64,000 nt of DNA from sequence record MW233709. One strand, 5' to 3'. Below are positions 2,055 through 32,497 of this stretch, one piece after another (the stretch's first letter is position 1; every line of letters begins with the position of its first letter). Origin of the DNA: Escherichia phage UPEC01. The notes under the pieces are model-generated. The model had not been told where the DNA came from. It ran no database searches and was given only the letters and a program-made list of their open reading frames with translations. The translations under genes and the position numbers were made by a program.

Positions 2055-2262
2055 CAAACACCATGAAGTTGAAGAAGAAGCTTATAAAGAGCTTCAGAAA
2101 CTGGTAGGGCAGAATATGTCTCCTGCTCTTATCAACAACCTGGCTGCACTGCGTAATGACCTCAATGAACGGTACAAGGGCGAATATTATGTTGAATTCG
2201 TTCCGCTGACTGAAGTCATTGACCGATTTATTGTTAATGTCAAGGTGCATACCGTCCATTAA
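2047..2262 (+). CDS. hypothetical protein (cd.x-like cluster)
   Basis: 71-aa ORF overlapping previous ORF by 8 nt. Confidence 0.45.
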   Translation: MYNKHHEVEEEAYKELQKLVGQNMSPALINNLAALRNDLNERYKGEYYVEFVPLTEVIDRFIVNVKVHTVH

Positions 2263-2287
2263 CGCTTTAAAAATTTTATGTTATAAT
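2261..2287 (+). promoter_or_regulatory. middle-type promoter cassette (MotA-box-like + TATAAT)
   Basis: aaCGCTTTA 2261-2269, 12-nt spacer, TATAAT 2282-2287, followed by GGGGTCTAGGTCC (cassette family). Confidence 0.5.
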
Positions 2288-2333
2288 GGGGTCTAGGTCC
2301 TTTGGATACCCCAATAACTAAGCGAGAAAAGAA

Positions 2334-2612
2334 ATGTTTCCTACATATTCTGAAATTGTTAAAGTAGTTTTTAGTCAGATTGTATCTGATTATCTATACG
2401 AAAGCGTCGACGTGTCGACTGAACTAAAGGTGCATGGTCGTTTGTCTGCTATTCTGGAAATCATGTTCCCAGATGCAGTTGATGCAATCACTGTTCAACT
2501 CACACCTGGTGCAGCATTTGCAATTGTTCCGTTTAAAATTGATAACCACATTTTGGCTATTTCATGCAAAATGGACTTCCAGAAACAAACGGTAGTTGTC
2601 GAAGCAATTTAA
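2334..2612 (+). CDS. hypothetical protein (cd.x-like cluster)
   Basis: 92-aa ORF preceded by middle-type promoter cassette at 2261-2287. Confidence 0.5.
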   Translation: MFPTYSEIVKVVFSQIVSDYLYESVDVSTELKVHGRLSAILEIMFPDAVDAITVQLTPGAAFAIVPFKIDNHILAISCKMDFQKQTVVVEAI

Positions 2613-2614
2613 GT

Positions 2615-2643
2615 GTTTACTTTCACCACGGATGGTGTATAAT
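2615..2643 (+). promoter_or_regulatory. early promoter
   Basis: GTTTAC 2615-2620, 17-nt spacer with TG, TATAAT 2638-2643. Confidence 0.6.
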
Positions 2644-2672
2644 GAATTTCATCAACACATGAGGAAAACAAA

Positions 2673-3215
2673 ATGAGTAATTTCTTTGAAGAAGGCAAGT
2701 TTTACAAGTTCGCATCTGAAAATGCCAAAAAACAGTTTATTGCCGGAGGCTGGGCAGCTAATTACCAAATTGCCAAATACATCGGTATGACTCCGTTTGA
2801 AGTTAAGATTGTCCCTGATACTGCTAGCGGTGGAAGAAAAGTTTGTGAGATTCGTTTGATTGATGAAAAGAATTTTGTGGATTTGGCAAAAATATCTGGT
2901 GCAGAAAACAGGCATCATGGGGCAATGTTTGTTTCTGCTGGTCCATTGTCTGATGAATTTGATTATTTCATCCAAGCGGAAGTTGGCGTTAAGCCAGAAG
3001 TTGAACCTGTGCCAGTAAAACTTGCATCAGTTTGGAAATTGCTTGTGGTTAAAAATGGCAAGATTGAGATTAACTCTCGTCATGTGTCAAAAGAATATGC
3101 GGAAGGCGAAGCAGAGCGTCTGTTAAACCATGGTACTGCAGAAGATTGCTATATTATCAAAGGCGATATCACAAAAGCTTCTATCATTAAACAAGTAAAA
3201 CAGGAGACAATCTGA
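2673..3215 (+). CDS. hypothetical protein (cd.x-like cluster)
   Basis: 180-aa ORF; early promoter GTTTAC-N17-TGTATAAT at 2615-2643 and SD GAGGA upstream. Confidence 0.55.
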   Translation: MSNFFEEGKFYKFASENAKKQFIAGGWAANYQIAKYIGMTPFEVKIVPDTASGGRKVCEIRLIDEKNFVDLAKISGAENRHHGAMFVSAGPLSDEFDYFIQAEVGVKPEVEPVPVKLASVWKLLVVKNGKIEINSRHVSKEYAEGEAERLLNHGTAEDCYIIKGDITKASIIKQVKQETI

Positions 3216-3460
3216 TGCTTAGCGAAACCCCAATTACTGTTGAAGAGTTCCACGAAAAAGTGAAAGCATTCGCTCAAGCGATGATTAACCGTGTATCAGA
3301 GCGATTCCCTAATGCGACTTTGCAAGTTATTCAGGAATCTGCACGCAGTTTTATGATTGTCATTAATCCGAAAATTACTCTAAAAGGTGGTGACCAATTG
3401 ACCCAACTGAAATTGGGTTCTGATGGTCTGGTTGAAGCGCAGCGAGTGTATATTCAATGA
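3215..3460 (+). CDS. hypothetical protein (cd.x-like cluster)
   Basis: 81-aa ORF, ATGA overlap with upstream gene. Confidence 0.45.
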   Translation: MLSETPITVEEFHEKVKAFAQAMINRVSERFPNATLQVIQESARSFMIVINPKITLKGGDQLTQLKLGSDGLVEAQRVYIQ

Positions 3461-3792
3461 TGAATTTAATGGATATTTTCCAGGAAGCACTTAAAAATGA
3501 TTTGGGTGACCATCGTAAGTTGGACCCGGAGACAGCCGCATTTATCAAAGTAACGCTTGCGAATGATGCTCTGTTTAAAAGTATTCACCCAAGTAATTAT
3601 GATGCGGTTGTTATTACAGAAGCTCCTGTAGAAATTGGTGAGCGAATGTTTGGGGTGATTTTTGGCGATAAGAAAAAACGCTTCAGCGACGGTGATAGTA
3701 TAATTACAACACATGTTAAGAGCATTACTAAATTGCGACATGAATTATATCGTGTTGAAACTATTAAAACCAATTATCTCGTGGTGATGTAA
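3457..3792 (+). CDS. hypothetical protein
   Basis: 111-aa ORF immediately upstream of cd, overlap-coupled to neighbours. Confidence 0.45.
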   Translation: MMNLMDIFQEALKNDLGDHRKLDPETAAFIKVTLANDALFKSIHPSNYDAVVITEAPVEIGERMFGVIFGDKKKRFSDGDSIITTHVKSITKLRHELYRVETIKTNYLVVM

Positions 3793-4374
3793 ATGAAACC
3801 AACTACTGTTCTGCAAATCGCATACCTTGTATCTCAAGAATCCAAATGTTGCTCCTGGAAAGTGGGAGCTGTTATTGAAAAGAATGGCCGCATTATTTCT
3901 ACAGGGTATAATGGTTCCCCTGCGGGTGGGGTTAACTGTTGCGAGCATGCGGAAGAGCAAGGTTGGTTACTGAATAAACCTAAACCTGTTCTCGTCCCTG
4001 GTCATAAGCCAGAATGTGTGAGATTCAGTAAGGTTGACCGTTTTGTATTGGCGAAAGCCCATCGCGAAGAACATTCTGCATGGTCAAAGAACAACGAAAT
4101 TCATGCCGAGCTTAATGCGATTCTGTTCGCAGCCAGAATGGGTTCATCAATTGAAGGCGCTACTATGTATGTGACGCTTTCTCCTTGCCCTGATTGTGCA
4201 AAGGCAATTTCTCAATCAGGAATCAAGAAATTGGTTTACTGTGAAACGTATGATAAGAATATTCCTGGTTGGGATGATATCCTGAAGAACGCGGGAATTG
4301 AGGTGTTCAATGTGCCTAAGCGTAGTTTAGACAAATTGAACTGGGAAAACATTAACGAATTTTGTGGTGAATAA
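3793..4374 (+). CDS. cd: dCMP deaminase
   Basis: 193 aa; cytidine/deoxycytidylate deaminase zinc motifs CEHAE and PCPDC; matches T4 Cd position. Confidence 0.9.
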   Translation: MKPTTVLQIAYLVSQESKCCSWKVGAVIEKNGRIISTGYNGSPAGGVNCCEHAEEQGWLLNKPKPVLVPGHKPECVRFSKVDRFVLAKAHREEHSAWSKNNEIHAELNAILFAARMGSSIEGATMYVTLSPCPDCAKAISQSGIKKLVYCETYDKNIPGWDDILKNAGIEVFNVPKRSLDKLNWENINEFCGE

Positions 4375-4607
4375 TGAAATTTCGTCTAGTTAAGTTTTCA
4401 GGTCTGAACTCAAAAGGTGAAAACCTGGTAGCCTTTTCAGTAGAATATAAAAAGTACTTTTTCTCTCGTTGGAAATCGTACTATAAATCTGAGTGGGTTC
4501 GCGCCGAAATGAAATATAAAACGGTGCCTATTCTTGATAATTGTCATAGCCTATTAAGAGCTCTAAAAGAGCGTAATGCAACAACCATTAAAACTGTTTT
4601 GGAATAA
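4374..4607 (+). CDS. hypothetical protein (31.2 position)
   Basis: 77-aa ORF between cd and gene 31. Confidence 0.45.
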   Translation: MKFRLVKFSGLNSKGENLVAFSVEYKKYFFSRWKSYYKSEWVRAEMKYKTVPILDNCHSLLRALKERNATTIKTVLE

Positions 4608-4609
4608 TT

Positions 4610-4909
4610 ATGATTTTAACTGAACAAGAAACAATTCGTCTCCGTGAAAAAGTCAAGACTATTTTGTCTGTTGGTTTTCACGAAGTTCTGTTTGAAAAAG
4701 CAGATGGTAGCATCCGTCGTATGACTTGTACTCGCGACCTGGACCTGCTGCCGTATAAAGAAATCCAGACCCCTGGACCAGAAGCTCATAAAGAACCAGT
4801 TAGCTATATCCGGGTATTTGATACCAAGCTTAATGAATGGCGTTCATTCTGTTTCAATAAATTGATTTCCGTGAATGGACTACAGACCGAGACACTGCTT
4901 GTCCTTTAA
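4610..4909 (+). CDS. hypothetical protein (31.1 position)
   Basis: 99-aa ORF between cd and gene 31. Confidence 0.45.
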   Translation: MILTEQETIRLREKVKTILSVGFHEVLFEKADGSIRRMTCTRDLDLLPYKEIQTPGPEAHKEPVSYIRVFDTKLNEWRSFCFNKLISVNGLQTETLLVL

Positions 4910-4940
4910 TGCTTCAAACGGTGCGTGTTATTATTAATAC

Positions 4941-5288
4941 ATGACCAAACAACATGGATTAAATATGGAATTACCAATTAAAGCAGTAGGTGAATATATT
5001 ATTTTGGTTTCTGAGCCAAAGCAAGCTGGTGATGAAGAAACTACGGCATCAGGTATCGTTATCGGAAAACTCCATCAGGGTGAAATCCCAGAGATGTGTG
5101 AAGTATTTTCGATTGGTCCGGATGTTCCTGAAGGTTTCTGTGAAGTGGGTGATTTGACTCCTCTTCCGGTTGGCAAGATTGCAAACGTTCCACATCCTCT
5201 GGTTGCTCTGGGACTTAAGCAGGCTAAAGAAGTTAAGCAGAAATTTGTGACCTGTCATTATAAAGCTGTTCCTTGTCTTTATAAGTAA
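4941..5288 (+). CDS. 31: GroES-like co-chaperonin for capsid protein folding (gp31)
   Basis: Protein ...[23 protein letters not shown]...[15 protein letters not shown] is near-collinear with T4 gp31 as recalled; true start may be ATG at 4965. Confidence 0.8.
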
Positions 5289-5297
5289 AATTAGCGT

Positions 5298-5305
5298 TAT
5301 AAATA
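5298..5305 (+). promoter_or_regulatory. late promoter TATAAATA upstream of rIII
   Basis: Exact TATAAATA just after gene 31 stop. Confidence 0.5.
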
Positions 5306-5445
5306 ATAATATGGATTGGCTGCCGGACCCGTTAGTTAACCGGAGAATCCTAAACGGTGGACTACAACTGAGAGACTTGCCGAAAGGAAGTGAAATTCAG
5401 AAGAACGTGTCCACCAAATATTCACCTCGTATTGAGGCTTCTAAA

Positions 5446-5700
5446 ATGTCTTTAAATAAACAATTACAACACGCTCTTGAACTGCAACGCACTGCATGGA
5501 ATAACGGTCACGAAAACTACGGCGCATCTATTGATGTTGAAGCCGAAGCACTGGAAATTCTGCAGTATTTCAAACATCTTAACCCGATTCAAACCGACCT
5601 TCGCGCAGTGCTCGAAGCAAAAGATGAACTGAAATTTGCTAAGCCGCTGGCATCTGCTGCGCGTAAAGCTGTTCGTCATTTTGTCGTAACCCTGAAGTAA
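5446..5700 (+). CDS. rIII: rIII lysis inhibition accessory protein
   Basis: 84 aa from internal ATG (MSLNKQLQHALELQRTAWNNGHENYG...), matching recalled T4 rIII; SD GAGG upstream; listed ORF start at 5311 judged an in-frame extension. Confidence 0.75.
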   Translation: MSLNKQLQHALELQRTAWNNGHENYGASIDVEAEALEILQYFKHLNPIQTDLRAVLEAKDELKFAKPLASAARKAVRHFVVTLK

Positions 5701-6097
5701 GCTGTAGGTGATTCGCTACCTTAGTGCGGCTAGAAAATCGAGGAGCCGCCGAATTATCTGATTAATGATTTGCGAATCATTATAGTTTTAGACCCCGATA
5801 ATTTTGTGGTGTACCTCTTGAATGTTATTCTTATAGCGGCAAGTGCATGCTACCCCGAGGTGATGGCCAATCGGGAGTACGCCTCAAGGCCTATATATCC
5901 ATCAGTATATATCTTATCCTCGAGAAATCGAACCCGGAACCTTTAAGCTAACGGTGTGCAACAGATAAGAGCTATAAGGTATGATGACGAGGTTTATGGT
6001 TATCCTGTCGTTAAATATCCGAAACCTAATGTTCCCTTCGAGGGCTTGCGCAGGCAATGCCAATAAGTCCTGCATTCTATTTTAAAGAGAATTTAAT

Positions 6098-6260
6098 ATG
6101 GCTAAGAAAGAAGTTAAAGTTGTTGATGGCTCCTCCAAACGCGATGGTTACAAGCGTGCGTCCAACAAGCGAATCAATCAGGTAACTGATAAACTTCAGG
6201 CTCGTGCTCGTGCGGTATTGCGTGCCGATGCAGCTTGCTTTGGTAAGCCGAAAGCATAAG
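6098..6260 (+). CDS. hypothetical small basic protein
   Basis: 53-aa ORF (below track cutoff) with SD AAGAGA and followed by strong terminator 6265-6290. Confidence 0.4.
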
Positions 6261-24330: not shown

Positions 24331-24996
24331 ATGATTGACAAGAACTACATTGAGGAAATTCGTGTCCTCGAGAAAAAAGAAGCCAAAGAAAAATTAGCCG
24401 AATACGCAGCATCACTTGGTGTTGATGTTAAGAAAACAAAAACCTTTGATAATATGTTGGCCGACCTGGAAGCAGGACTTAAAGCATTTGCTGACATGCC
24501 TATGCCTGATGATAATGAAGGCCTGAGCATCACTGACCTTATCGACGCCGATGATGAATTGTCAGGTGCTAAATTTGATGGCGACGAGTCAGCTAAAGAA
24601 GAAGCTAAACTCTTATTTGATGCTCCAACCGAAGCAAAGGTTGAAGTTGTTGAAATCGAAGAACCAGTTGTTGTGGTTGAAGAAGATGTTCCTTTTGTCG
24701 AAGAAAAGTTCGAAGCGGCTGTTGCTAAGGTTATCGAATCTGAAAAACCTGTATTTGCTCTGCCAAAAAACTTTAGCCCGAATTTAATGCTTATTGGTAA
24801 GAACCCTGGATTCTGTACTGTTCCATGGTGGATTTATCAGTGGATTGCCGAGACTCCAGATTGGAAAGAACGTCCAACTGCTTTCCCACATCCCACCGCG
24901 CACCAAACTCTATTCAGTTTGATTTATTACATCAATCGTAATGGGTCTGTTCTAGTACGAGAAACTCGTAACTCATCTTTTGTCACTTTAAAATAA
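24331..24996 (+). CDS. inh: Inh-like prohead protease inhibitor
   Basis: 221 aa, acidic low-complexity middle; located between uvsW and hoc as T4 inh; assignment by synteny, moderate. Confidence 0.55.
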   Translation: MIDKNYIEEIRVLEKKEAKEKLAEYAASLGVDVKKTKTFDNMLADLEAGLKAFADMPMPDDNEGLSITDLIDADDELSGAKFDGDESAKEEAKLLFDAPTEAKVEVVEIEEPVVVVEEDVPFVEEKFEAAVAKVIESEKPVFALPKNFSPNLMLIGKNPGFCTVPWWIYQWIAETPDWKERPTAFPHPTAHQTLFSLIYYINRNGSVLVRETRNSSFVTLK

Positions 24997-25005
24997 GGGT
25001 TTATT

Positions 25006-26139
25006 ATGGCTTATACCGTAACTATTGCTCCTTTGGCGGCTACGGCCGTTATTGGAGCAACAACCAATTTCACTGCGACCGGTTCCGGTGCTGCAGCTGA
25101 AGGTACCGAATCATTTGTCTGGACCGTTGATGGCGTTCCTCAATCTTCTGTGACTGCTGCAATGGATTATGTTGCTGTTGGTCCAGCAGGCAGTAAGACT
25201 ATTAAAGTTGTTGCAACAACTACACCAGCGGACGGCGAACCAGAAACAGCTGAAGCCGAAACAACTTTAACTATCCAGAATAAAACAATGCCTGCTATTA
25301 CATTGACTTTAGACCCGGCCTCTGTTACTAAAGAAGTGGGGCAATCTCAAGTTGTTACTGCTAACGTGACAGGCGCTCCTTCTGGTGCAACAATCGCTTA
25401 TGTTTGGAAACGAAATGCCGACGTAATCGCAGGTCAAACTGGTAAAACTATTACCGTCACCGAATCAGCAGAAGCAAATTATACATTGAACTGTGAAGTT
25501 ACTGTTTCTGCACCCGATTATAATAATGGCACCGCATCTAAAGGAGCTGCGGTAACTTTTGTTAAGAAAACTATGTCGGGTGTTTCTGTTACTTTAGCAC
25601 CAACCTCTATTAATGTTCCTGAAGGAACTCCGGCTTCATTTAAAGCAGATGTAGTTGGCGCACCGAGTGGAGCTACTTTTGCCTATTCTTGGAAGAAAGA
25701 CGGTTCTCCTGTAGTTGGCACCACGGATACTTTAGCAATCGATACAAGCGCCGAAGGTTCCCAGTTAATTGAAGTTTCTGTTGTTGTATCTGCTACAGAT
25801 TATAATCCTGTTACAGTTACCAAAACCGGTAATGTAACAGTCACGGCTAAAGTCGCACCAGTTCCAGAGGGTGAACTACCTTACGTTCATCCGCTGCCAG
25901 TTCGTAATTCAGCTTATATCTGGTGTGGTTGGTGGGTTATGGATGAAATTCAGAAAATGACTCTTGCTGGACAAGACTGGAAAACCGATGACCCAGATAG
26001 CCCGTATTATTTGCACCGATATACACTTCAAAAAATGATTACCGACTATCCAGAGGTTGATGTACAGGAATCTCGTAATGGTCGAATTATTCATCGCACC
26101 GCTTTAGAAACTGGTATTATATACGATTACGTTTATTAA
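25006..26139 (+). CDS. hoc: Hoc outer capsid decoration protein
   Basis: 377 aa; tandem T/V-rich Ig-like repeats; C-terminal PYVHPLP...YIWCGWWVMDEIQKMT...DDPDS.YYLHRYTLQKM matches recalled T4 Hoc. Confidence 0.9.
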   Translation: MAYTVTIAPLAATAVIGATTNFTATGSGAAAEGTESFVWTVDGVPQSSVTAAMDYVAVGPAGSKTIKVVATTTPADGEPETAEAETTLTIQNKTMPAITLTLDPASVTKEVGQSQVVTANVTGAPSGATIAYVWKRNADVIAGQTGKTITVTESAEANYTLNCEVTVSAPDYNNGTASKGAAVTFVKKTMSGVSVTLAPTSINVPEGTPASFKADVVGAPSGATFAYSWKKDGSPVVGTTDTLAIDTSAEGSQLIEVSVVVSATDYNPVTVTKTGNVTVTAKVAPVPEGELPYVHPLPVRNSAYIWCGWWVMDEIQKMTLAGQDWKTDDPDSPYYLHRYTLQKMITDYPEVDVQESRNGRIIHRTALETGIIYDYVY

Positions 26140-26901: not shown

Positions 26902-27909
26902 ATGTTTAAGAAATACAACAGCCTTGAAAATCACTATAACAACAAGTTCATTGAAAAGATTCGCCTGCAAGGCTTCACCAACGGTGAATGGGTAGCTCGT
27001 GAAAAGATTCATGGTACCAACTTTTCATTAATCATTGAACAAGACAATGTGACATGTGCGAAACGCACTGGACCTATCCTACCTGCAGAAGATTTTTATG
27101 GTTATGAAATTGTATTAAAGAACTATGCAGATTCTATTAAATCTGTACAGAAACTTTTGCAGGATATTAATTACCAGGCATATCAGATTTATGGCGAGTT
27201 TGCTGGTACAGGTATTCAGAAGAATGTGAATTACGGCGATAAAGATTTCTATGTGTTTGATATCCGCGTTACTAAAGAAGATGGTTTTGAATCCGTCCTG
27301 ACTGACACACTTATGGAAGCCTTTTGTATTATTCATAAGTTTAAAGTTGCTCCGCGCCTGGCTACTGGTAGCTTTGAAGACCTTATTAAGCTACCTAATG
27401 ACCTGGATTCTGTGGTCCCTGATTACAATTTTACAGTGGATAATGCAGGATTGACTACAGCAAATACCACTGATTTTGATGCAAAGGTGGAAGGTAAAGT
27501 ATTCACTGCTGAAGGATTTGTATTAAAACCTGATGTTCCTGCCTGGTTACCTAACGGCGAGCGTGTGGCGATTAAATGCAAGAACTCTAAATTCAGCGAA
27601 AAGAAAAAGTCTGATAAGCCTATTAAGGCCGCTGTTGTGTTGTCCCAGGAAGACCTGGATATTTTATGGCAGTTCACTGATTACGTGACTGTTAACCGTA
27701 TTAATAATGTTATCAGTAAAATTGGGGAAGTATCGCCGAAGGATTTTGGGAAGGTAATGGGTTTGACTGTCCAGGATATCCTGGAAGAAGCTGGTCGTGA
27801 AGGCCTTGAATTGACCCAGTCAGAAAATCCTGTTGAAGTTAAAAAGCAACTTATCACAAATGTAAGAGAAACATTAAGACATGTTTGGATTGCATTAATT
27901 AGTGAATAA
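26902..27909 (+). CDS. rnlB: RNA ligase 2
   Basis: 335 aa; MFKKY.SLENHYN.KFIEK...[16 protein letters not shown] with KxHGxN adenylation motif; collinear with recalled T4 Rnl2. Confidence 0.9.
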
Positions 27910-27940
27910 AAAAAAGGGCCGCAAGGCCCTTATTCTTTTT
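27908..27940. terminator. bidirectional intrinsic terminator (rnlB + / gene 24 paralog -)
   Basis: AAAAAAAA-GGGCC-GCAA-GGCCC-TTATTCTTTTT. Confidence 0.7.
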
Positions 27941-29213
27941 CCAGTGGCGGAAGTTTAACGCCAAGATAAGAACTCAATTGGCTTTGGTTAGCCATCTTAT
28001 CCATATCAGCCCCATCAATAAGGCGGGCTTCTTTATCGTCTTTAGCAACGGTATAGGGGTTCGCTGTCAATGCATAACGAGCTAACAGTGCAACCGTAGG
28101 CTGTAAGCTTTCAGGGTCAACAATAACCTTGAATTCTCCGACCGATGTATCCCCCTCATCATCAACTTCGCTAAGTCCTTCCGTATAAGGCGCATAATAC
28201 AAAGATGCGACCGTCTGACCTTCACCCATATCAGCATTTACACCGACAATAACATAATCACATGGACTATTCATATCTGCGTAAAGAGGCAAACCGTTCT
28301 TCAGAACACCATAGGCTAATTCATCCTGGTCTTCCTTTTTCTCAACCCAGCCAGAAGCGGCTAAAATAGCTGCACAACGGGAAGAAGCAACCGCATATGT
28401 ACCAGCAAACGAAGTCTGACGTTGAACTGCAGAATTCATTTCACACATATAATAATACAGGGTTCGTGCGCGGTCCTGTGCGTTATCATATTTCGGGTCA
28501 GTGAGATTCAACACACCTTTTTCAGAAACACCTTGTACCTTGAAGCGAGAACTAACAGTAATAAGGGATTGCAATACATCCTTATTAATTTCCTCTGCCA
28601 TTTGAATGCCGAGAATATTATCGATGAAGTCTGTTGCATCGAAACCGTTTGCTTCCAGGTCCTGAGCAAGCTCGACAGTTAAAGAAGTTTTCAACTTTCT
28701 GGATTTAACTTCAGTCTGCCATTTATCGATACGGAAACCAGCTTCAGCAATTTCAGGATGCCCCTTTTCAAATTTATCAGTGAAAGCAGCATCTGACATC
28801 ATTCTTATATGTCCAGCAGCAATGGCTTCAGAAATAACTTCACCTAAATCAGTTTCGAGTGTCCCGGCAAAGGGGGAAGCTTCCAGAACTTTGAATACAA
28901 CGCTTTCAAACTGAAACATATCGCCGACTGCATAAGCTTCATCTTTGTTCGTAAATTCTGGAATATTCTTACGCTCGAACATACCAATCTGACCTGCAAA
29001 TGTTGCTCCACCGAGATATGTCATTTTATCATCTGGGTTCAGAACACGAACACCATACAACGCTGCAACAGGCTGTGTAGTTTTCTGTTCGGCAACGAGT
29101 GCTTTAAAAATTCGTTTATTCGTGGCCTGGGTATAAGAAAGCAAATTAGGACGGGCGACCTGGTTGGCCGCCGTTAATGTTGATTCGTGAATTAGTGCGT
29201 TAATCTTTTGCAT
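27930..29213 (-). CDS. head vertex protein gp24 paralog (diverged second copy)
   Basis: 427 aa; shares gp24 family blocks (VKSRKLKT.LTVELAQDLEANGF, EINKDVLQSLITVS, FKVIVDPESLQP, ANPYTVAKDDKEAR) with the upstream copy but is clearly diverged. Confidence 0.8.
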   Translation of the reverse strand: MQKINALIHESTLTAANQVARPNLLSYTQATNKRIFKALVAEQKTTQPVAALYGVRVLNPDDKMTYLGGATFAGQIGMFERKNIPEFTNKDEAYAVGDMFQFESVVFKVLEASPFAGTLETDLGEVISEAIAAGHIRMMSDAAFTDKFEKGHPEIAEAGFRIDKWQTEVKSRKLKTSLTVELAQDLEANGFDATDFIDNILGIQMAEEINKDVLQSLITVSSRFKVQGVSEKGVLNLTDPKYDNAQDRARTLYYYMCEMNSAVQRQTSFAGTYAVASSRCAAILAASGWVEKKEDQDELAYGVLKNGLPLYADMNSPCDYVIVGVNADMGEGQTVASLYYAPYTEGLSEVDDEGDTSVGEFKVIVDPESLQPTVALLARYALTANPYTVAKDDKEARLIDGADMDKMANQSQLSSYLGVKLPPLEKE

Positions 29214-30494
29214 TTACGCCTCATAAATGATTGGCGGAAGTTTAACACCGAGCAGATAAGACATATTGCTCTGACCGGCCATTAAATCCATATTGGTTGC
29301 ATCGATAATACGAGCTTCTTTATCGTCTTTAGCAACGGTGTAAGGGTTAGCTGAAAGTGCATAACGAACCATCAAAGAGATAGCTGGTTGCAAACTGTCA
29401 GGGTCCACAATGACTTTAAACGCGCCTACATGCTCTTCATCATCTAAGTCCAGGCCTTCGGTATAAGGAGCATAGAAGATTGAGCCTACGACTTCGTTTC
29501 CGCCGTAATTTTCTTTAACGCCAACGGTTACATAATCCAATGGACTGTTAACATCACAGAATACAGGAAGACCATTAATCAAATAACCGTACGCTGTTTC
29601 AGGAAGCCACTGTTCGTCTTCAGGTTTATGCTTCAGCCAGCCAGAACCGGCCAACATAGCAGCAACACGGCTGGAGGCAACAACAAAGGTACCGGAATAA
29701 GATGTAGTTTTCTGAATTTCGGAGTTCATTTCGCAAACCAGTTCGTACAGTTTACGTGCGCCTTCTGGAGCTGCATCATATGTTAAATCGATGGTGCCAT
29801 TGTCAGAAACACCAGTTACTTTATAACGCTTGGAAACGGTAATAAGAGACTGAAGAACATCTTTGTTAATTTCATCTGCCATAATAGTAGCAAGCAGGTC
29901 TTCCAGGAAAGCAGGAGCATTAAAGCCATTTGCTTCCATATCCTGAGCAAGCTCAACAGTTAATGCAGTTTTCAATTTACGGGATTTAACAGGAGCATTC
30001 CATTTATTAACCTGGAATACAGCGTTACTAATTTCAACATCACCGGCTTCAAATTTCTCGGTGTGCGCTGCATCAGGAACCAAACGAATGGTTAATGCAA
30101 TAAGACCTTCTTGCAGAACATCTGATAATACAGTTTCGGTAGTCGATGCAAATGGATTATCAACCAGAGCTTTGTAAACGATATTTTGGTATTTTACATA
30201 TTCGCCTTTAGCAACAGGCTGAGTGGCTGTAGTTAATTCTGGAATAGTTGTACGGTCTTTAGAACCGACTTCGCCTCCATAAGTAGCGCCCGTCTGGAAA
30301 CTGAATTCATTATCAGGAGTAAGATATTTAACACCATACAGTGCAGCAACAGGCTGGTTAGTACGTTGTTCAGCGATGATATCGCGGTAAATCAATTTAG
30401 TCGTAGCGCGGGTCAAAGCAACAAGATTCGGGCGGCCCAATGAGTTGCTGGTAGTAATAGTTGACTCGCGCAGTAATTTGTTAATCTTTGCCAT
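29214..30494 (-). CDS. 24: head vertex protein gp24
   Basis: 426 aa; MAKINKLLRESTITTSNSLGRPNLVALTRATTKLIY... closely matches recalled T4 gp24; late promoter at 30521-30528. Confidence 0.9.
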   Translation of the reverse strand: MAKINKLLRESTITTSNSLGRPNLVALTRATTKLIYRDIIAEQRTNQPVAALYGVKYLTPDNEFSFQTGATYGGEVGSKDRTTIPELTTATQPVAKGEYVKYQNIVYKALVDNPFASTTETVLSDVLQEGLIALTIRLVPDAAHTEKFEAGDVEISNAVFQVNKWNAPVKSRKLKTALTVELAQDMEANGFNAPAFLEDLLATIMADEINKDVLQSLITVSKRYKVTGVSDNGTIDLTYDAAPEGARKLYELVCEMNSEIQKTTSYSGTFVVASSRVAAMLAGSGWLKHKPEDEQWLPETAYGYLINGLPVFCDVNSPLDYVTVGVKENYGGNEVVGSIFYAPYTEGLDLDDEEHVGAFKVIVDPDSLQPAISLMVRYALSANPYTVAKDDKEARIIDATNMDLMAGQSNMSYLLGVKLPPIIYEA

Positions 30495-30520: not shown

Positions 30521-30528
30521 TATTTATA
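30521..30528 (-). promoter_or_regulatory. late promoter upstream of gene 24
   Basis: TATAAATA on - strand 27 nt upstream of gp24 ATG. Confidence 0.6.
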
Positions 30529-30605: not shown

Positions 30606-30887
30606 ATGAACAAAGCAACTTTCCTTCTGAACACCTTTAAAAAATTGGAAATTGAAGTTATTGCATTGGTCAACAAATACCCAAATGGCGTTAATGGTAA
30701 TGCTCTGAACAAACTAGTTAAAAAATATGAAAACTTAGCATATGACACTGATTTCTGGTGGAATGGTAATTATTCTACTCACACTAAAGATAAAAATGGT
30801 AACTGGTTGAAACTTCAAGAAAACAATGTTAACTTCAGAGACCTCATCAAGCGCCGGGTAGAAGTTCATTTAAATGGTATGGTATGA
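30606..30887 (+). CDS. hypothetical early protein inserted between genes 24 and 23
   Basis: 93-aa ORF on opposite strand to the capsid operon; own early promoter 30535-30564, SD GGAG, bidirectional terminator 30895-30921. Confidence 0.55.
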   Translation: MNKATFLLNTFKKLEIEVIALVNKYPNGVNGNALNKLVKKYENLAYDTDFWWNGNYSTHTKDKNGNWLKLQENNVNFRDLIKRRVEVHLNGMV

Positions 30888-30894
30888 AAACAAG

Positions 30895-30921
30895 AAAGGG
30901 ACCTCAAGGGTCCCTTTTTAT
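30895..30921. terminator. bidirectional intrinsic terminator (ORF 30606 + / gene 23 -)
   Basis: AAA-GGGACC-TCAAG-GGTCCC-TTTTTATTT. Confidence 0.65.
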
Positions 30922-30937
30922 TTAACTTAATCTAAGA

Positions 30938-32497
30938 TTAAATTCCTTTAACATATACGCGGCGGAAGTAACCGTTCAAGCCGAGGCTGTTAACGATGTC
31001 CGGCATGCCGTTTTGAATACGCTTGGTCGGAGCCTGAGCTGTCGGGTCAGCGAACGGGTTAATACCGATACCGTAACGGGTTTTGAAGCCCATAACCGGC
31101 TGGAAGTTTTTCGGGTCAGAGCCACGCAGCGGAGTCAGTGCAACATATGGTGCATAGTAGATACCAGCATCCATTTCGTTAGCGCCTTTGTAACCGATGG
31201 TGAAGTAGTCTGCACGAGCATACTGGTCGATATAGACACGGTATTTGCCACCCAGAACACCAGCGAACACAGCTTTAGTGGTGTCAACGTTGAAACCTTT
31301 ACCCAGACCCTGAGCAGCATAAGATACGGAGGTATCAACTGCAGCCAGTACGTTAACTACGTTACGGGAAGCGATGATGAAGTTACCTGCACCACGGCCA
31401 GTCTGACGAGCGATTTCAGCAGCTTCTTTGTCAATCTGGAACAGTAAAGCTTTGAAGCTTTCACCAGCCCAACGAGCACCACGGATATCAATCGGGTCCT
31501 GGAAGTCAAACACACCAGCTTTAGCGCCAACGGTGTTGGTCATACCAGATTTACCAACCTGAGCGGAGTAGTTAATCCAATCGATAACTTCGCGGTTGAT
31601 TTCCAGCATAATTTCGGTAGCCAGAATACCACTCAATTCAGCATCAGCATCCATACCGTGGACAGCGCGGAGGTCCTGCGCCAGTTCGATAGAGTAGCTT
31701 GCTTTAAGCTGACGGGATTTAGCTTCGATAACTTGTTTGTCGATGCGGAAGCCCATTTCGTTCCACGGGTTATCAGTAGAACCGTTAAAGCCTTCCTGCA
31801 ATTCGGCGATAGAGGTAGCCATACCTTCAGCGATTTCTGCCAGCTTACCAGCTTCGAGCAGTTTGGTAACTTCAGCGTCAAGTTTAGCAGCATCAGTAGC
31901 GGCGGCATCGACGGTTACAGCTTCAACAGCCTGGTAGTGCGCAGAACCGGTTGCTTCGAAGAAGTGTGAATAAATTTTACCAACGGTAAGAACTTTGCTT
32001 GCAGCCAGAGCTTCGAAAGCTTCAGCAGCGCCCTGACCAGAGAACATAGCGTTCGGAGCATACATCGGGTGGAAAGCTTCTTTAGCACCAGCAGCTACAG
32101 GGTCTTTACCGTAAACTGCACGCAGGGCAAATACCTGGCCAGTCGGGTTGTTCAGAGGCTGTACGCCACAAATATCAAACGCAATCAGATGCGGGATAGC
32201 ACGACGAACCATACCCATAACTGCCGGCCCAATCTGAGTTACTGCGCCAGAGGTCTGGCCAGCAGCGATATTGGTAGCATCATAACCATGGTCACCACCG
32301 ATTTCAGCTTCGGTCAGGAAAGAACCAAATGCTTCGGAGATTTTTTCGTCACGGTATTCAGGAGCGGTCAGAATATCTTGTTCCTGGTTTTCAAAGATTT
32401 TAGCGATGATAGCTTGTTTAGAAGCACCAACGATTTCCGGAAGAGCTTCGTTTTCCAGCAGAGCGGACCATTTTTGAACTAATGCATTCTTTTTCAT
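30938..32497 (-). CDS. 23: major capsid protein gp23
   Basis: 519 aa; long identical stretches to recalled T4 gp23 (e.g. AIIAKIFENQE, GGDHGY.ATNIAAGQTSGAVTQIGPAVMGMVRRAIP, NFQPVMGFKTRYGIGINPFA). Confidence 0.95.
   Translation of the reverse strand: MKKNALVQKWSALLENEALPEIVGASKQAIIAKIFENQEQDILTAPEYRDEKISEAFGSFLTEAEIGGDHGYDATNIAAGQTSGAVTQIGPAVMGMVRRAIPHLIAFDICGVQPLNNPTGQVFALRAVYGKDPVAAGAKEAFHPMYAPNAMFSGQGAAEAFEALAASKVLTVGKIYSHFFEATGSAHYQAVEAVTVDAAATDAAKLDAEVTKLLEAGKLAEIAEGMATSIAELQEGFNGSTDNPWNEMGFRIDKQVIEAKSRQLKASYSIELAQDLRAVHGMDADAELSGILATEIMLEINREVIDWINYSAQVGKSGMTNTVGAKAGVFDFQDPIDIRGARWAGESFKALLFQIDKEAAEIARQTGRGAGNFIIASRNVVNVLAAVDTSVSYAAQGLGKGFNVDTTKAVFAGVLGGKYRVYIDQYARADYFTIGYKGANEMDAGIYYAPYVALTPLRGSDPKNFQPVMGFKTRYGIGINPFADPTAQAPTKRIQNGMPDIVNSLGLNGYFRRVYVKGI

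What the first reader, a model, noticed from the sequence alone, without database searches (positions are those of the whole stretch)
27930..30494. Two diverged tandem copies of head vertex gene 24
Adjacent - strand ORFs of 426 and 427 aa both belong to the gp24 family, sharing blocks such as VKSRKLKT.LTVELAQDLEANGF, EINKDVLQSLITVS, FKVIVDPESLQP and ANPYTVAKDDKEAR. They are clearly diverged elsewhere, including the N-terminal region. The second copy starts immediately after the first one's stop codon, with an SD (GAGG) inside the first gene's 3' end, so the two appear translationally coupled. T4 has a single gene 24 as I recall. Two vertex paralogs could give mixed or alternative vertex pentamers; I cannot tell from sequence whether this duplication is already described.
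Basis: partly seen in the sequence, partly recalled or inferred. Interest (0 to 1): 0.6.

Follow-up and report, generated by a model that had tools for sequence, protein, structure and literature searches.

The report
Two head-vertex (gp24) genes in tandem
This T4-like coliphage has two intact, co-expressed versions of the protein that forms the corners of the phage head; this is already annotated in its relatives (JS98, VR7), but the second version is an ancient specialised paralog whose role has never been tested.

Summary
Two adjacent minus-strand ORFs, 24(1) at 29214-30494 (426 aa) and 24(2) at 27930-29213 (427 aa), are full-length homologs of T4 vertex protein gp24. They are 56% identical to each other. 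The stop codon of 24(1) abuts the start codon of 24(2), with a GAGG 5 nt upstream.

The window is a Gaprivervirus (VR7-like; 96.8% identical to phage CJ20). The same gene pair is already annotated in public records: JS98 (24a/24b), VR7 (24(1)/24(2)) and VR5/VR20 ("capsid vertex protein I/II"). The feature is therefore already known.

What I add:
- 24(1) is the ordinary gp24 ortholog, 69-70% identical to T4-type gp24.
- 24(2) is not a recent copy of it. It forms its own clade, which falls outside the clade holding all 24(1) and all single-copy gp24 sequences.
- In all 12 contexts examined, across at least five phage lineages, the 24(2)-type gene is the second gene of the tandem.
- Both genes are under strong purifying selection (dN/dS 0.02-0.07) and both keep the prohead-protease cleavage motif.
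- The pair looks like one late operon with one promoter and one terminator.
- A natural cassette swap exists: Klebsiella phage F48 has two genes, while AmPh_EK29, of the same species, has one gene plus segD.

The function of 24(2) is untested. Most likely it is a second vertex subunit.

The parts
30521..30528 (-). T4-type late promoter box TATAAATA, about 27 nt upstream of the 24(1) start codon
   Evidence: Exact match. The window holds 22 such matches against 4.7 expected. The box sits at the same place in 8 of 9 two-gene loci, and none occurs inside any 24(1) gene.
29214..30494 (-). Gene 24(1), 426 aa: the canonical head-vertex protein gp24 ortholog
   Evidence: PF07068 E = 1e-97. It is 69-70% identical to Tequatrovirus and Mosigvirus gp24 and 89-97% identical to JS98/VR5/VR7 24(1). 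It has no fixed differences from single-copy gp24 at conserved sites. dN/dS against VR7 is 0.051. The N-terminus MAKINKLLRE|S keeps the L-x-E motif at residues 8-10 that the T4 protease cuts.
29219..29222 (-). Shine-Dalgarno GAGG for 24(2), inside the last codons of 24(1), 5 nt before the ATG. The stop TAA (29216-29214) abuts the ATG (29213-29211).
   Evidence: Read directly from the sequence. Abutting or overlapping stop/start (TAAATG, TAATG, ATGA, or a 1-nt spacer) is seen in all 10 tandem loci compared.
27930..29213 (-). Gene 24(2), 427 aa: an ancient, divergent paralog of gp24 ('capsid vertex protein II', 24b)
   Evidence: PF07068 E = 2e-97. It aligns over residues 1-424 with T4 gp24 (PDB 1YUE/7VS5) at E = 4e-148, against 1e-12 for gp23. 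It is only 55-58% identical to any 24(1) or T4-type gp24, but 80-98% identical to 24(2) of VR7, JS98, VR5, CF-SP2 and F48. The clade has 100% bootstrap support and lies outside the 24(1)/T4 clade. dN/dS against VR7 is 0.026. The N-terminus MQKINALIHE|S keeps I-x-E.
27906..27931 (-). Intrinsic-terminator-like hairpin AAGGGCCTTGCGGCCCTT followed by a T run, overlapping the stop codon of 24(2)
   Evidence: Terminator scan. A GC-rich hairpin follows 24(2) in VR7, JS98, VR5, CF-SP2, F48 and L020 as well.
30895..30917 (-). Terminator-like hairpin after gene 23. It separates gene 23 from the 24(1)-24(2) unit.
   Evidence: Terminator scan.
30938..32497 (-). Gene 23, major capsid protein (519 aa). Context: it is the older paralog of both gp24 genes.
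   Evidence: PF07068 E = 2e-122 and PHROG 138. About 29% identical to either gp24 copy.

Best explanation
The window comes from a VR7-like T4-type coliphage (genus Gaprivervirus). Downstream of major capsid gene 23 it carries a two-gene late operon, 24(1)-24(2).

Shown:
- Both genes are intact, full-length homologs of T4 vertex protein gp24.
- Both are under strong purifying selection.
- Both keep the (L/I)-x-E motif at residues 8-10, where the T4 prohead protease removes 10 residues from gp24.
- They share one late promoter and one terminator, and the stop of the first abuts the start of the second.
- 24(1) is the ordinary gp24 ortholog.
- 24(2) belongs to a separate, old paralog lineage. Wherever it was found it is the second gene of such a tandem.
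- The tandem is patchily distributed among T4-like genera. One natural pair of near-identical genomes differs by two genes versus one.

Inferred:
- The two proteins are made together late in infection, and both are built into the prohead as subunits of the pentameric vertices.
- 24(2) acts as a specialised second vertex subunit. Its lineage-specific changes cluster at residues 32-72 (T4 numbering), the N-terminal region and I-domain linker 1. In T4 these elements pair with each other between neighbouring subunits of one pentamer. The changes may therefore affect which subunits sit next to each other (separate homopentamers or defined mixed pentamers).
- The single-gene state of T4 and several other genera is most simply explained by loss or replacement of 24(2).
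For: - Identity and integrity. There are no internal stops in any of 20 copies.
- Selection: window versus VR7 gives dN/dS 0.051 for 24(1) and 0.026 for 24(2). All ortholog pairs are at or below 0.17.
- Operon: a late promoter lies only upstream of 24(1) and there is none inside it. Terminators follow gene 23 and 24(2). Coupled stop/start is conserved in 10 loci.
- Cleavage motif: present in every 24(2) ortholog (LIHE, LIQE, LIRE, LLRE, LLFE).
- Old paralogy, trees: the 24(2) clade has 100% bootstrap support. A clade of all 24(1) plus single-copy Tequatro-, Mosig-, Karam-, Moon- and Kanagawavirus gp24 excludes 24(2) at 99-100%. A 24(1)+24(2) sister grouping gets 0%.
- Old paralogy, other tests: the quartet pattern (24(1), single-copy | 24(2), outgroup) wins in 78 of 80 quartets, typically about 3:1. 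24(2) is not significantly faster-evolving with 7 of 8 outgroups.
- Always in tandem: 12 of 12 contexts holding a 24(2)-type gene (66-100% identical) have it as the second gene after a 24(1). These are the window, VR7, JS98, VR5, CF-SP2, F48 and L017-L022.
- Patchy distribution: two-gene phages are not monophyletic on gp23 (0%). Single-gene PEi20 groups with Dhaka-/Gaprivervirus at 100%.
- Cassette swap: F48 and AmPh_EK29 are 98.4% identical through genes 22-23 and about 90% identical from rnlB onward. F48 has 24(1)+24(2); EK29 has segD plus one gp24.
- Specialisation: 24(2) has 10 fixed substitutions at sites that are at least 90% conserved in 28 other gp24 sequences, and six of them lie at residues 32-72. 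24(1) has none relative to single-copy gp24.
- Structural context in T4: gp24 residues 26-29 pair with an I-domain linker of the adjacent subunit, and residues 11-20 reach onto a neighbouring hexamer (PMC9546572, read).
Against: - There is no direct evidence that either product, and 24(2) in particular, is in the virion. I found no proteomics, cryo-EM or genetics for a two-gene phage in the held library (10 searches). The PDB holds no 24(2)-type chain.
- AmPh_EK29 shows that a phage with a near-identical gp23 manages with one gp24, so 24(2) is not universally required.
- The trees are neighbour-joining on corrected p-distances. The position of 24(2) relative to Jiaodavirus and Tegunavirus gp24 is weak (56-82%).
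- The link from residues 32-72 to subunit pairing rests on T4 structure descriptions, not on a model of this protein. My AlphaFold model was too poor to use (pLDDT 49).
Confidence: 0.6

Rival explanations
1. 24(2) is a functional vertex protein but a redundant or conditionally useful spare. It can stand in for 24(1) under particular temperatures or hosts, and has no position of its own in the capsid.
For: - AmPh_EK29, of the same species as F48, has a single gp24.
- In T4, gp24 itself can be bypassed by single gp23 mutations (PMC9546572; PMC10580926), so occupancy of the vertex is flexible.
- JS98 24(2) groups with VR7/window 24(2), while JS98 24(1) groups with VR5 24(1). Alleles of the two genes therefore get reshuffled and are not tightly co-adapted.
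Against: - A mere spare should decay or be lost often. Instead 24(2) is at least as constrained as 24(1) (dN/dS 0.026 against 0.051).
- It is retained with the same coupled architecture down to 66% identity.
- It carries fixed lineage-specific changes at otherwise invariant sites.
- EK29 also swapped its 24(1) for a Kanagawavirus-like allele (79% to PEi20, only 69% to F48 24(1)). It is therefore not a clean loss of 24(2) alone.
Confidence: 0.2
2. 24(2) is not a shell subunit of the finished head. It would be a non-structural derivative: for example an assembly factor acting transiently at vertices or at the portal-proximal ring, or a decoy against a host defence that senses the vertex protein.
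For: - The fixed changes cluster in the N-terminal region, which in T4 head proteins faces the scaffold before expansion (PMC9546572).
- Nothing shows it is present in virions.
Against: - It keeps every domain, the full length and the protease cleavage motif of gp24.
- The P-domain and C-terminal regions that form inter-capsomer contacts are its best conserved parts (68-70% identity to 24(1); within-clade conservation 0.90-0.91).
- I know of no defence system that senses gp24 (my own knowledge, not tested).
Confidence: 0.1
3. The pair is a recent local tandem duplication of gene 24 in the JS98/VR7 lineage, and the second copy then diverged very fast.
For: - The genes are adjacent and have identical base composition (GC 0.425/0.428; GC3 0.342/0.343).
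- 24(2) has more unique changes at conserved sites than 24(1): 25 against 5 in the small set.
Against: - A sister grouping of 24(1) and 24(2) gets 0% bootstrap support.
- Quartets favour 24(1) with T4-type gp24 in 78 of 80 cases, and there is no significant rate excess of 24(2) with 7 of 8 outgroups.
- 24(2) orthologs occur in the same tandem in Gelderlandvirus, Marfavirus, Erwinia phage FBB1 and uncultured relatives.
- Synonymous sites between the paralogs are saturated (dS 1.4-2.8).
Confidence: 0.04
4. One of the two copies is a decaying pseudogene.
For: None found.
Against: - Both reading frames are intact in every genome examined.
- dN/dS is 0.02-0.07 in unsaturated comparisons.
- The ribosome-binding site and the coupled start are conserved.
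Confidence: 0.01

Closest known systems
Genes 24a/24b of phage JS98 (Dhakavirus), 24(1)/24(2) of vB_EcoM-VR7 (Gaprivervirus), and 'capsid vertex protein I/II' of VR5/VR20/VR25/VR26/CJ20
   Same: This is the same gene pair in the same order, at the same position (23 - small reverse ORF - 24(1) - 24(2) - rnlB) and with the same abutting stop/start. Window 24(1) is 97% identical to the VR7 gene and 90% to the JS98 gene. Window 24(2) is 98% and 95% identical, respectively.
   Different: Nothing of substance; the window is another isolate of this group (closest match CJ20, 96.8% nucleotide identity). Those records only name the genes. I could not find any held paper that analyses the pair. From memory only, the JS98 (Zuber et al. 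2007) and VR7 (Kaliniene et al. 2011) genome papers mention it; neither is held here.
T4 gp24 head vertex protein (PDB 1YUE; capsid structures 5VF3, 7VS5)
   Same: Both window proteins align with it end to end (24(2): residues 1-424, E = 4e-148). They have the same length, the same N-terminal cleavage motif, the same position after gene 23 and the same late-promoter control.
   Different: T4 has one such gene. 24(2) is only about 55% identical to it. It differs at 10 positions that are otherwise nearly invariant among gp24 proteins, including T32N, L34R, K56R, Y57V, E335Q and H356S.
The older gp23/gp24 duplication, and gp24-bypass mutations in gp23
   Same: The principle is the same: paralogs of one HK97-fold capsid protein take geometrically distinct positions, hexamers versus pentamers (PMC9546572; PMC10580926). 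A further split into two vertex paralogs would be a second round of that process.
   Different: gp23 and gp24 are about 29% identical here, and gp23 has a long N-terminal propeptide. 24(1) and 24(2) are 56% identical with the same architecture. No distinct structural position for 24(2) has been shown.
Single-copy gp24 of Jiaodavirus (Klebsiella phage phiA85/KP15 type) and Tegunavirus
   Same: Apart from its own orthologs, these are the closest relatives of 24(2) (63-64% identity). They group with it at 82% bootstrap support in the small tree.
   Different: They are the only gp24 gene of their genomes. In the larger tree they sit between 24(2) and the main clade with weak support (56-61%). They do not carry most of the 24(2)-specific substitutions (4 of 25 shared).

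Membership tests
T4 gp24 head-vertex protein family (within Pfam PF07068, Gp23/Gp24 capsid proteins) | Significant match to the family profile over the whole protein | tested here: met
   PF07068: 328 and 327 bits against a cut-off of 24.4, covering residues 19-417 and 19-419. PHROG 138 E = 1e-130 and 2e-123.
T4 gp24 head-vertex protein family (within Pfam PF07068, Gp23/Gp24 capsid proteins) | Closer to gp24 than to gp23: colinear end-to-end alignment with T4 gp24, including the insertion domain and its linkers | tested here: met
   24(2) against PDB: T4 gp24 (1YUE) residues 1-424 to 1-423, E = 4e-148. gp23 chains match only residues 156-393, E about 1e-12. 24(1) is 69-70% identical to T4-type gp24.
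T4 gp24 head-vertex protein family (within Pfam PF07068, Gp23/Gp24 capsid proteins) | Short (10-residue) N-terminal piece ending in the prohead-protease motif (L/I)-x-E, rather than the 65-residue piece of gp23 | tested here: met
   24(1) reads MAKINKLLRE|S and 24(2) reads MQKINALIHE|S. The motif is kept in all 10 24(2) and all 10 24(1) sequences compared. T4 removes 10 residues from gp24 (PMC9546572). Actual cleavage cannot be tested here.
T4 gp24 head-vertex protein family (within Pfam PF07068, Gp23/Gp24 capsid proteins) | Located directly after gene 23 in the late head-gene cluster, under a T4 late promoter | tested here: met
   The gene order on the minus strand is 20-67-68-21-22-23-24(1)-24(2). 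TATAAATA lies at 30521-30528.
T4 gp24 head-vertex protein family (within Pfam PF07068, Gp23/Gp24 capsid proteins) | HK97-type fold with an added insertion domain | tested here: inconclusive
   The AlphaFold2 model of 24(2), built from a 35-sequence alignment, had mean pLDDT 49 and pTM 0.44. That is too poor to compare with known folds. The fold is inferred from the 55% identity to 1YUE.
T4 gp24 head-vertex protein family (within Pfam PF07068, Gp23/Gp24 capsid proteins) | Forms the pentamers at 11 of the 12 capsid vertices | not testable with these tools
   This needs virion proteomics or cryo-EM. No solved structure of a 24(2)-type protein exists in the PDB copy searched.
The 24(1)/24(2) tandem of JS98/VR7-type phages | A 24(2)-type gene (own clade) placed immediately after a canonical gene 24, with abutting or overlapping stop and start | tested here: met
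   Window 24(2) falls in the 24(2) clade at 100% bootstrap support, next to VR7. The junction TAAATG is identical to that of VR7, JS98 and VR5.

The most novel reading that the evidence does not exclude
24(2) is a true structural subunit with its own place in the prolate head. Either it fills one geometric class of vertices (for example the five next to the portal, with 24(1) filling the other six), or it forms defined mixed pentamers with 24(1). In addition, the two-vertex-protein state is ancestral for a large part of the Tevenvirinae, so that T4's single gp24 reflects a secondary loss. Nothing here excludes this reading. It fits the strong constraint on 24(2), the conserved coupled expression, the deep paralogy, and the clustering of 24(2)-specific changes in elements that pair between neighbouring subunits.
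Probability: 0.25. Interest if true: 0.6.

Novelty: already known. Interest (0 to 1): 0.3.

Why it matters
T4 is the reference model for how a large prolate capsid is built, and in that model one protein, gp24, fills all eleven non-portal corners. Roughly 7-8% of gp24-carrying phage records in the collection searched instead encode two vertex proteins: 118 extra matches among 1417 records. The second protein is old, tightly conserved and co-expressed with the first.

If both are in the shell, these phages would show how non-equivalent corners of an elongated capsid can be served by different subunits. Single-gene and two-gene relatives such as AmPh_EK29 and F48 would be a ready-made comparison.

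As it stands, the gene pair is a known, annotated feature. Only its evolutionary depth and its unknown role are of interest.

Tried and rejected
- Literature. All ten full-text searches and targeted reading of ten papers found no discussion of two gp24 genes. The JS98 genome paper (PMC2168658) is not held. Hits for 'two gp24' concern an unrelated phiKZ protein.
- NCBIfam. It has no model for these proteins.
- Structure prediction. The AlphaFold2 model of 24(2) was poor (pLDDT 49), so I ran no fold search and did not map residues onto a model.
- Gene conversion as the source of the shared blocks: rejected.
  - The blocks are conserved in T4 gp24 too.
  - Third-position identity at identical residues is 0.52-0.55 within a genome against 0.45-0.49 across genomes.
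  - The longest exact shared run in the window is 26 nt. Only short patches are possible.
- Recent foreign origin of 24(2): no support. GC and GC3 equal those of 24(1).
- A donor lineage in which a 24(2)-type gene is the only gp24: not found. Every 24(2)-type protein down to 66% identity sits in a tandem. The next tier is a different type: 63-64% (Jiaodavirus) is single-copy, and 58% (P0027) is single-copy.
- An internal late promoter for 24(2): none found in 9 loci.
- The first bootstrap run compared a rooted tree with unrooted replicates and gave meaningless low values. It was redone with unrooted splits.
Full report
**What is there**

The minus strand between 27930 and 30494 holds two adjacent ORFs. 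I call the upstream one 24(1) (29214-30494, 426 aa) and the downstream one 24(2) (27930-29213, 427 aa), following the VR7 annotation. They align over their whole length at 56% identity and 75% similarity, E = 1e-173. Each resembles the major capsid protein gp23 (30938-32497) only at about 29% identity over roughly 250 residues. Both match Pfam PF07068 and PHROG 138.

24(2) aligns end to end with the T4 gp24 crystal-structure sequence 1YUE at E = 4e-148. gp23 chains reach only E about 1e-12.

The junction reads TATGAGGCGTAAATG. The TAA stop of 24(1) directly abuts the ATG of 24(2), and a GAGG lies 5 nt upstream of that ATG. Those blocks are also present in T4 gp24, so they are family motifs.

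**Which phage, and is this known**

Megablast of the region finds 77 phage records, 67 of them covering at least 80% of it. The best is Escherichia phage CJ20 at 96.8%, followed by many VR7-like phages (Gaprivervirus) at 92-96% and JS98-like phages (Dhakavirus) at about 81%.

These records already annotate the pair:
- '24(1)' and '24(2)' in VR7.
- '24a' and '24b', or two 'capsid vertex protein' entries, in JS98.
- 'capsid vertex protein I' and 'II' in VR5, VR20, VR25, VR26 and CJ20.

The feature is therefore already known at the level of genome annotation. Ten full-text searches and reading of the candidate papers found no analysis of it. The JS98 genome paper is not in the held library. My recollection that the JS98 and VR7 genome papers mention the duplication is from memory only.

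**Expression signals**

- A T4 late-promoter box TATAAATA sits about 27 nt upstream of 24(1), at 30521-30528.
- No such box occurs inside 24(1), here or in eight other two-gene loci.
- Terminator-like hairpins follow gene 23 (30895-30917) and overlap the stop of 24(2) (27914-27931, then a T run).
- In ten tandem loci from different lineages, the stop of 24(1) abuts, overlaps, or lies 1 nt from the start of 24(2).

The pair therefore looks like one bicistronic late operon with coupled translation. This is inferred from sequence signals, not measured.

**Both genes are functional**

Reading frames are intact in all 20 copies examined. Nei-Gojobori estimates for the least saturated comparison (window against VR7) give dN/dS of 0.051 for 24(1) and 0.026 for 24(2). 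All ortholog pairs are at or below 0.17.

Both proteins keep an (L/I)-x-E motif at residues 8-10. In T4, the prohead protease removes 10 residues from gp24 at that point (PMC9546572). The motif is kept in every ortholog. The pseudogene reading is excluded.

**24(1) is the ordinary gp24; 24(2) is an old paralog**

Identities:
- 24(1) is 69-70% identical to Tequatrovirus and Mosigvirus gp24, and 84-97% identical to 24(1) of VR7, JS98, VR5 and CF-SP2.
- 24(2) is 80-98% identical to 24(2) of those phages and of Klebsiella phage F48.
- 24(2) is only 55-58% identical to any 24(1) or T4-type gp24, and 64% identical to the single gp24 of Jiaodavirus.

Neighbour-joining trees, first with 23 sequences and then with 42:
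- The 24(2) clade has 100% bootstrap support.
- A clade holding all 24(1) together with single-copy gp24 of Tequatro-, Mosig-, Karam-, Moon- and Kanagawavirus and others has 99-100% support and excludes 24(2).
- A 24(1)+24(2) sister grouping has 0% support.

Tests against a long-branch artefact:
- Four-taxon site patterns favour (24(1), single-copy | 24(2), outgroup) in 78 of 80 quartets, typically about 3 to 1.
- Tajima relative-rate tests show no significant acceleration of 24(2) with seven of eight outgroups.

The low identity between the two copies therefore reflects age, not a burst of change after a recent local duplication. Base composition is the same in both genes (GC3 0.342 and 0.343). 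Synonymous sites between them are saturated, so there is no sign of recent import or of large-scale gene conversion.

**Distribution**

A tblastn search with 24(2) finds gp24 homologs in 1417 phage records with 1535 matching places, that is 118 extra places. In a spread sample, only records whose best match is at least 80% identical to 24(2) had two places. None of the 55 sampled records below 64% did.

The tandem is present in:
- Gaprivervirus and Dhakavirus.
- Gelderlandvirus (Salmonella phage CF-SP2).
- Marfavirus (Klebsiella phage F48).
- Erwinia phage FBB1, which has two gp24 proteins (P0017 and P0069). Five uncultured relatives found in metagenome assemblies show the tandem directly. Their 24(2)-type proteins are 66-69% identical to the window's.

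In all 12 contexts examined, the 24(2)-type gene is the second gene after a 24(1). I found no genome in which it is the only gp24.

In the larger tree the 24(1) genes are not monophyletic. The FBB1-type 24(1) genes branch at the base of the main clade, and single-copy phages are nested between the two groups of two-gene phages. On gp23, two-gene phages are also not monophyletic (0%), and single-gene PEi20 groups with Dhaka-/Gaprivervirus at 100%. The simplest reading is an old origin of the pair followed by several losses or cassette replacements. Transfer of the cassette cannot be separated from loss with these data.

**A natural swap**

F48 and AmPh_EK29 are classified in the same species.
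- Their DNA is 98.4% identical through genes 22 and 23, up to the end of gene 23.
- It drops to 71-74% across gene 24.
- It returns to about 90% from rnlB onward.
- F48 carries 24(1)+24(2). EK29 carries a segD homing-endonuclease gene plus a single gp24, which is 79% identical to that of Kanagawavirus PEi20 and only 69% identical to F48 24(1).

The locus is thus an exchangeable cassette, and a two-gene and a one-gene solution work with essentially the same gp23.

**Where 24(2) differs**

I compared 10 24(2), 10 24(1) and 18 single-copy sequences.
- 24(2) has ten fixed substitutions at positions that are at least 90% conserved in all the others: T32N, L34R, Y36F, K56R, Y57V, Y72F, I261V, Y267F, E335Q and H356S (T4 numbering).
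- Six of the ten lie in residues 32-72, the N-terminal region and the start of I-domain linker 1.
- 24(1) has no such differences from single-copy gp24.
- The insertion domain is the least similar region between the copies (37%), but it is also the most variable region in the whole family.

In the T4 capsid, gp24 residues 26-29 form a parallel beta interaction with an I-domain linker of the adjacent subunit of the same pentamer. Residues 11-20 reach onto a neighbouring gp23 hexamer (PMC9546572). The 24(2) signature therefore lies next to elements that hold neighbouring vertex subunits together. That fits a change in partner preference, but this is inference only. My AlphaFold model was too poor to use, and no 24(2)-type structure exists in the PDB copy.

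**Most likely mechanism and rivals**

I think it most likely (about 0.6) that both proteins are made together late in infection. Both would be trimmed by the prohead protease and built into the pentameric vertices, with 24(2) as a specialised second vertex subunit.

- Redundant or condition-dependent spare (about 0.2). It is supported by the EK29 case and by T4's gp24-bypass mutants. The long-term constraint on 24(2) and its fixed signature argue against it.
- Non-structural role (about 0.1). It is hard to reconcile with retention of every domain and of the cleavage motif.
- Recent duplication and pseudogene readings. Both are contradicted by the data above.

**Verdict**

The finding is real and correctly interpreted, but it is a known annotated feature of JS98/VR7-type phages. 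What is not known, as far as I could find, is what the second vertex protein does. Its age, constraint and patchy distribution make it a reasonable target for virion proteomics and cryo-EM.

Noticed in passing
window 30606-30887 (+): A 93-aa ORF on the opposite strand sits between gene 23 and 24(1). It matches PHROG 6003 (unknown function, E = 9e-47) and is annotated as a hypothetical protein in JS98 (orf173), VR7 (ORF190c) and VR5. In other phages the same slot holds other cargo: segD in AmPh_EK29, a homing endonuclease in phT4A, a nuclease/acetyltransferase in Acinetobacter phage Meroveus, and a 221-aa reverse ORF in L023. It is empty in CF-SP2 and F48. The 23-24 gap looks like an insertion hot spot.
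   Followed up: partly
L003 (F48) 2181-5343 against L010 (AmPh_EK29) 2754-4818: Two phages assigned to one species differ by a cassette bounded exactly by the end of gene 23 and the start of rnlB. F48 has 24(1)+24(2) plus a DprA-like fragment; EK29 has segD plus one Kanagawavirus-like gp24. Flanking identity is 98.4% and about 90%; inside the cassette it is 65-74%.
   Followed up: yes
L008 (JS98) 3613-6177, compared with L009 (VR5), L001 (VR7) and the window: The two genes give discordant trees. JS98 24(1) groups with VR5 24(1) (100%), but JS98 24(2) groups with VR7/window 24(2) (98-99%), leaving VR5 24(2) outside. This implies recombination at or near the boundary between the two genes across Dhakavirus and Gaprivervirus.
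   Followed up: partly
L002 (Salmonella phage CF-SP2), about aligned nt 621-661 of 24(1) and 24(2): The two paralogs of this genome share a 41-nt exact run in the INKDVLQSLITVS block. The window has at most 26 nt and cross-genome comparisons 14-23 nt. This may be a short gene-conversion patch.
   Followed up: no
L017 4890-6427, L019 2676-4506, L021 6326-7841, L022 2634-4140: In the Erwinia FBB1-like group, two further same-strand genes follow 24(2) directly. One is about 332-352 aa, with a faint collagen hit in one case; the other is about 165 aa (279 aa in L019). They have no family assignment. They may be additional head or decoration genes in the same late unit.
   Followed up: no
window 24331-26139 (+), compared with L001 (VR7) 1-2285: The window has inh (24331-24996) and one 377-aa Hoc-like gene with Ig-like repeats (25006-26139), placed about 170 nt before gene 24.3. 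At this position VR7 has an extra Hoc-like gene and a collagen-repeat 'tail fiber' gene on the other strand. The head-decoration region differs between otherwise close relatives.
   Followed up: no
whole window: The window holds 22 exact TATAAATA boxes against 4.7 expected from shuffles. Sixteen are on the minus strand and most lie just upstream of structural genes, as expected for T4-type late promoters.
   Followed up: no
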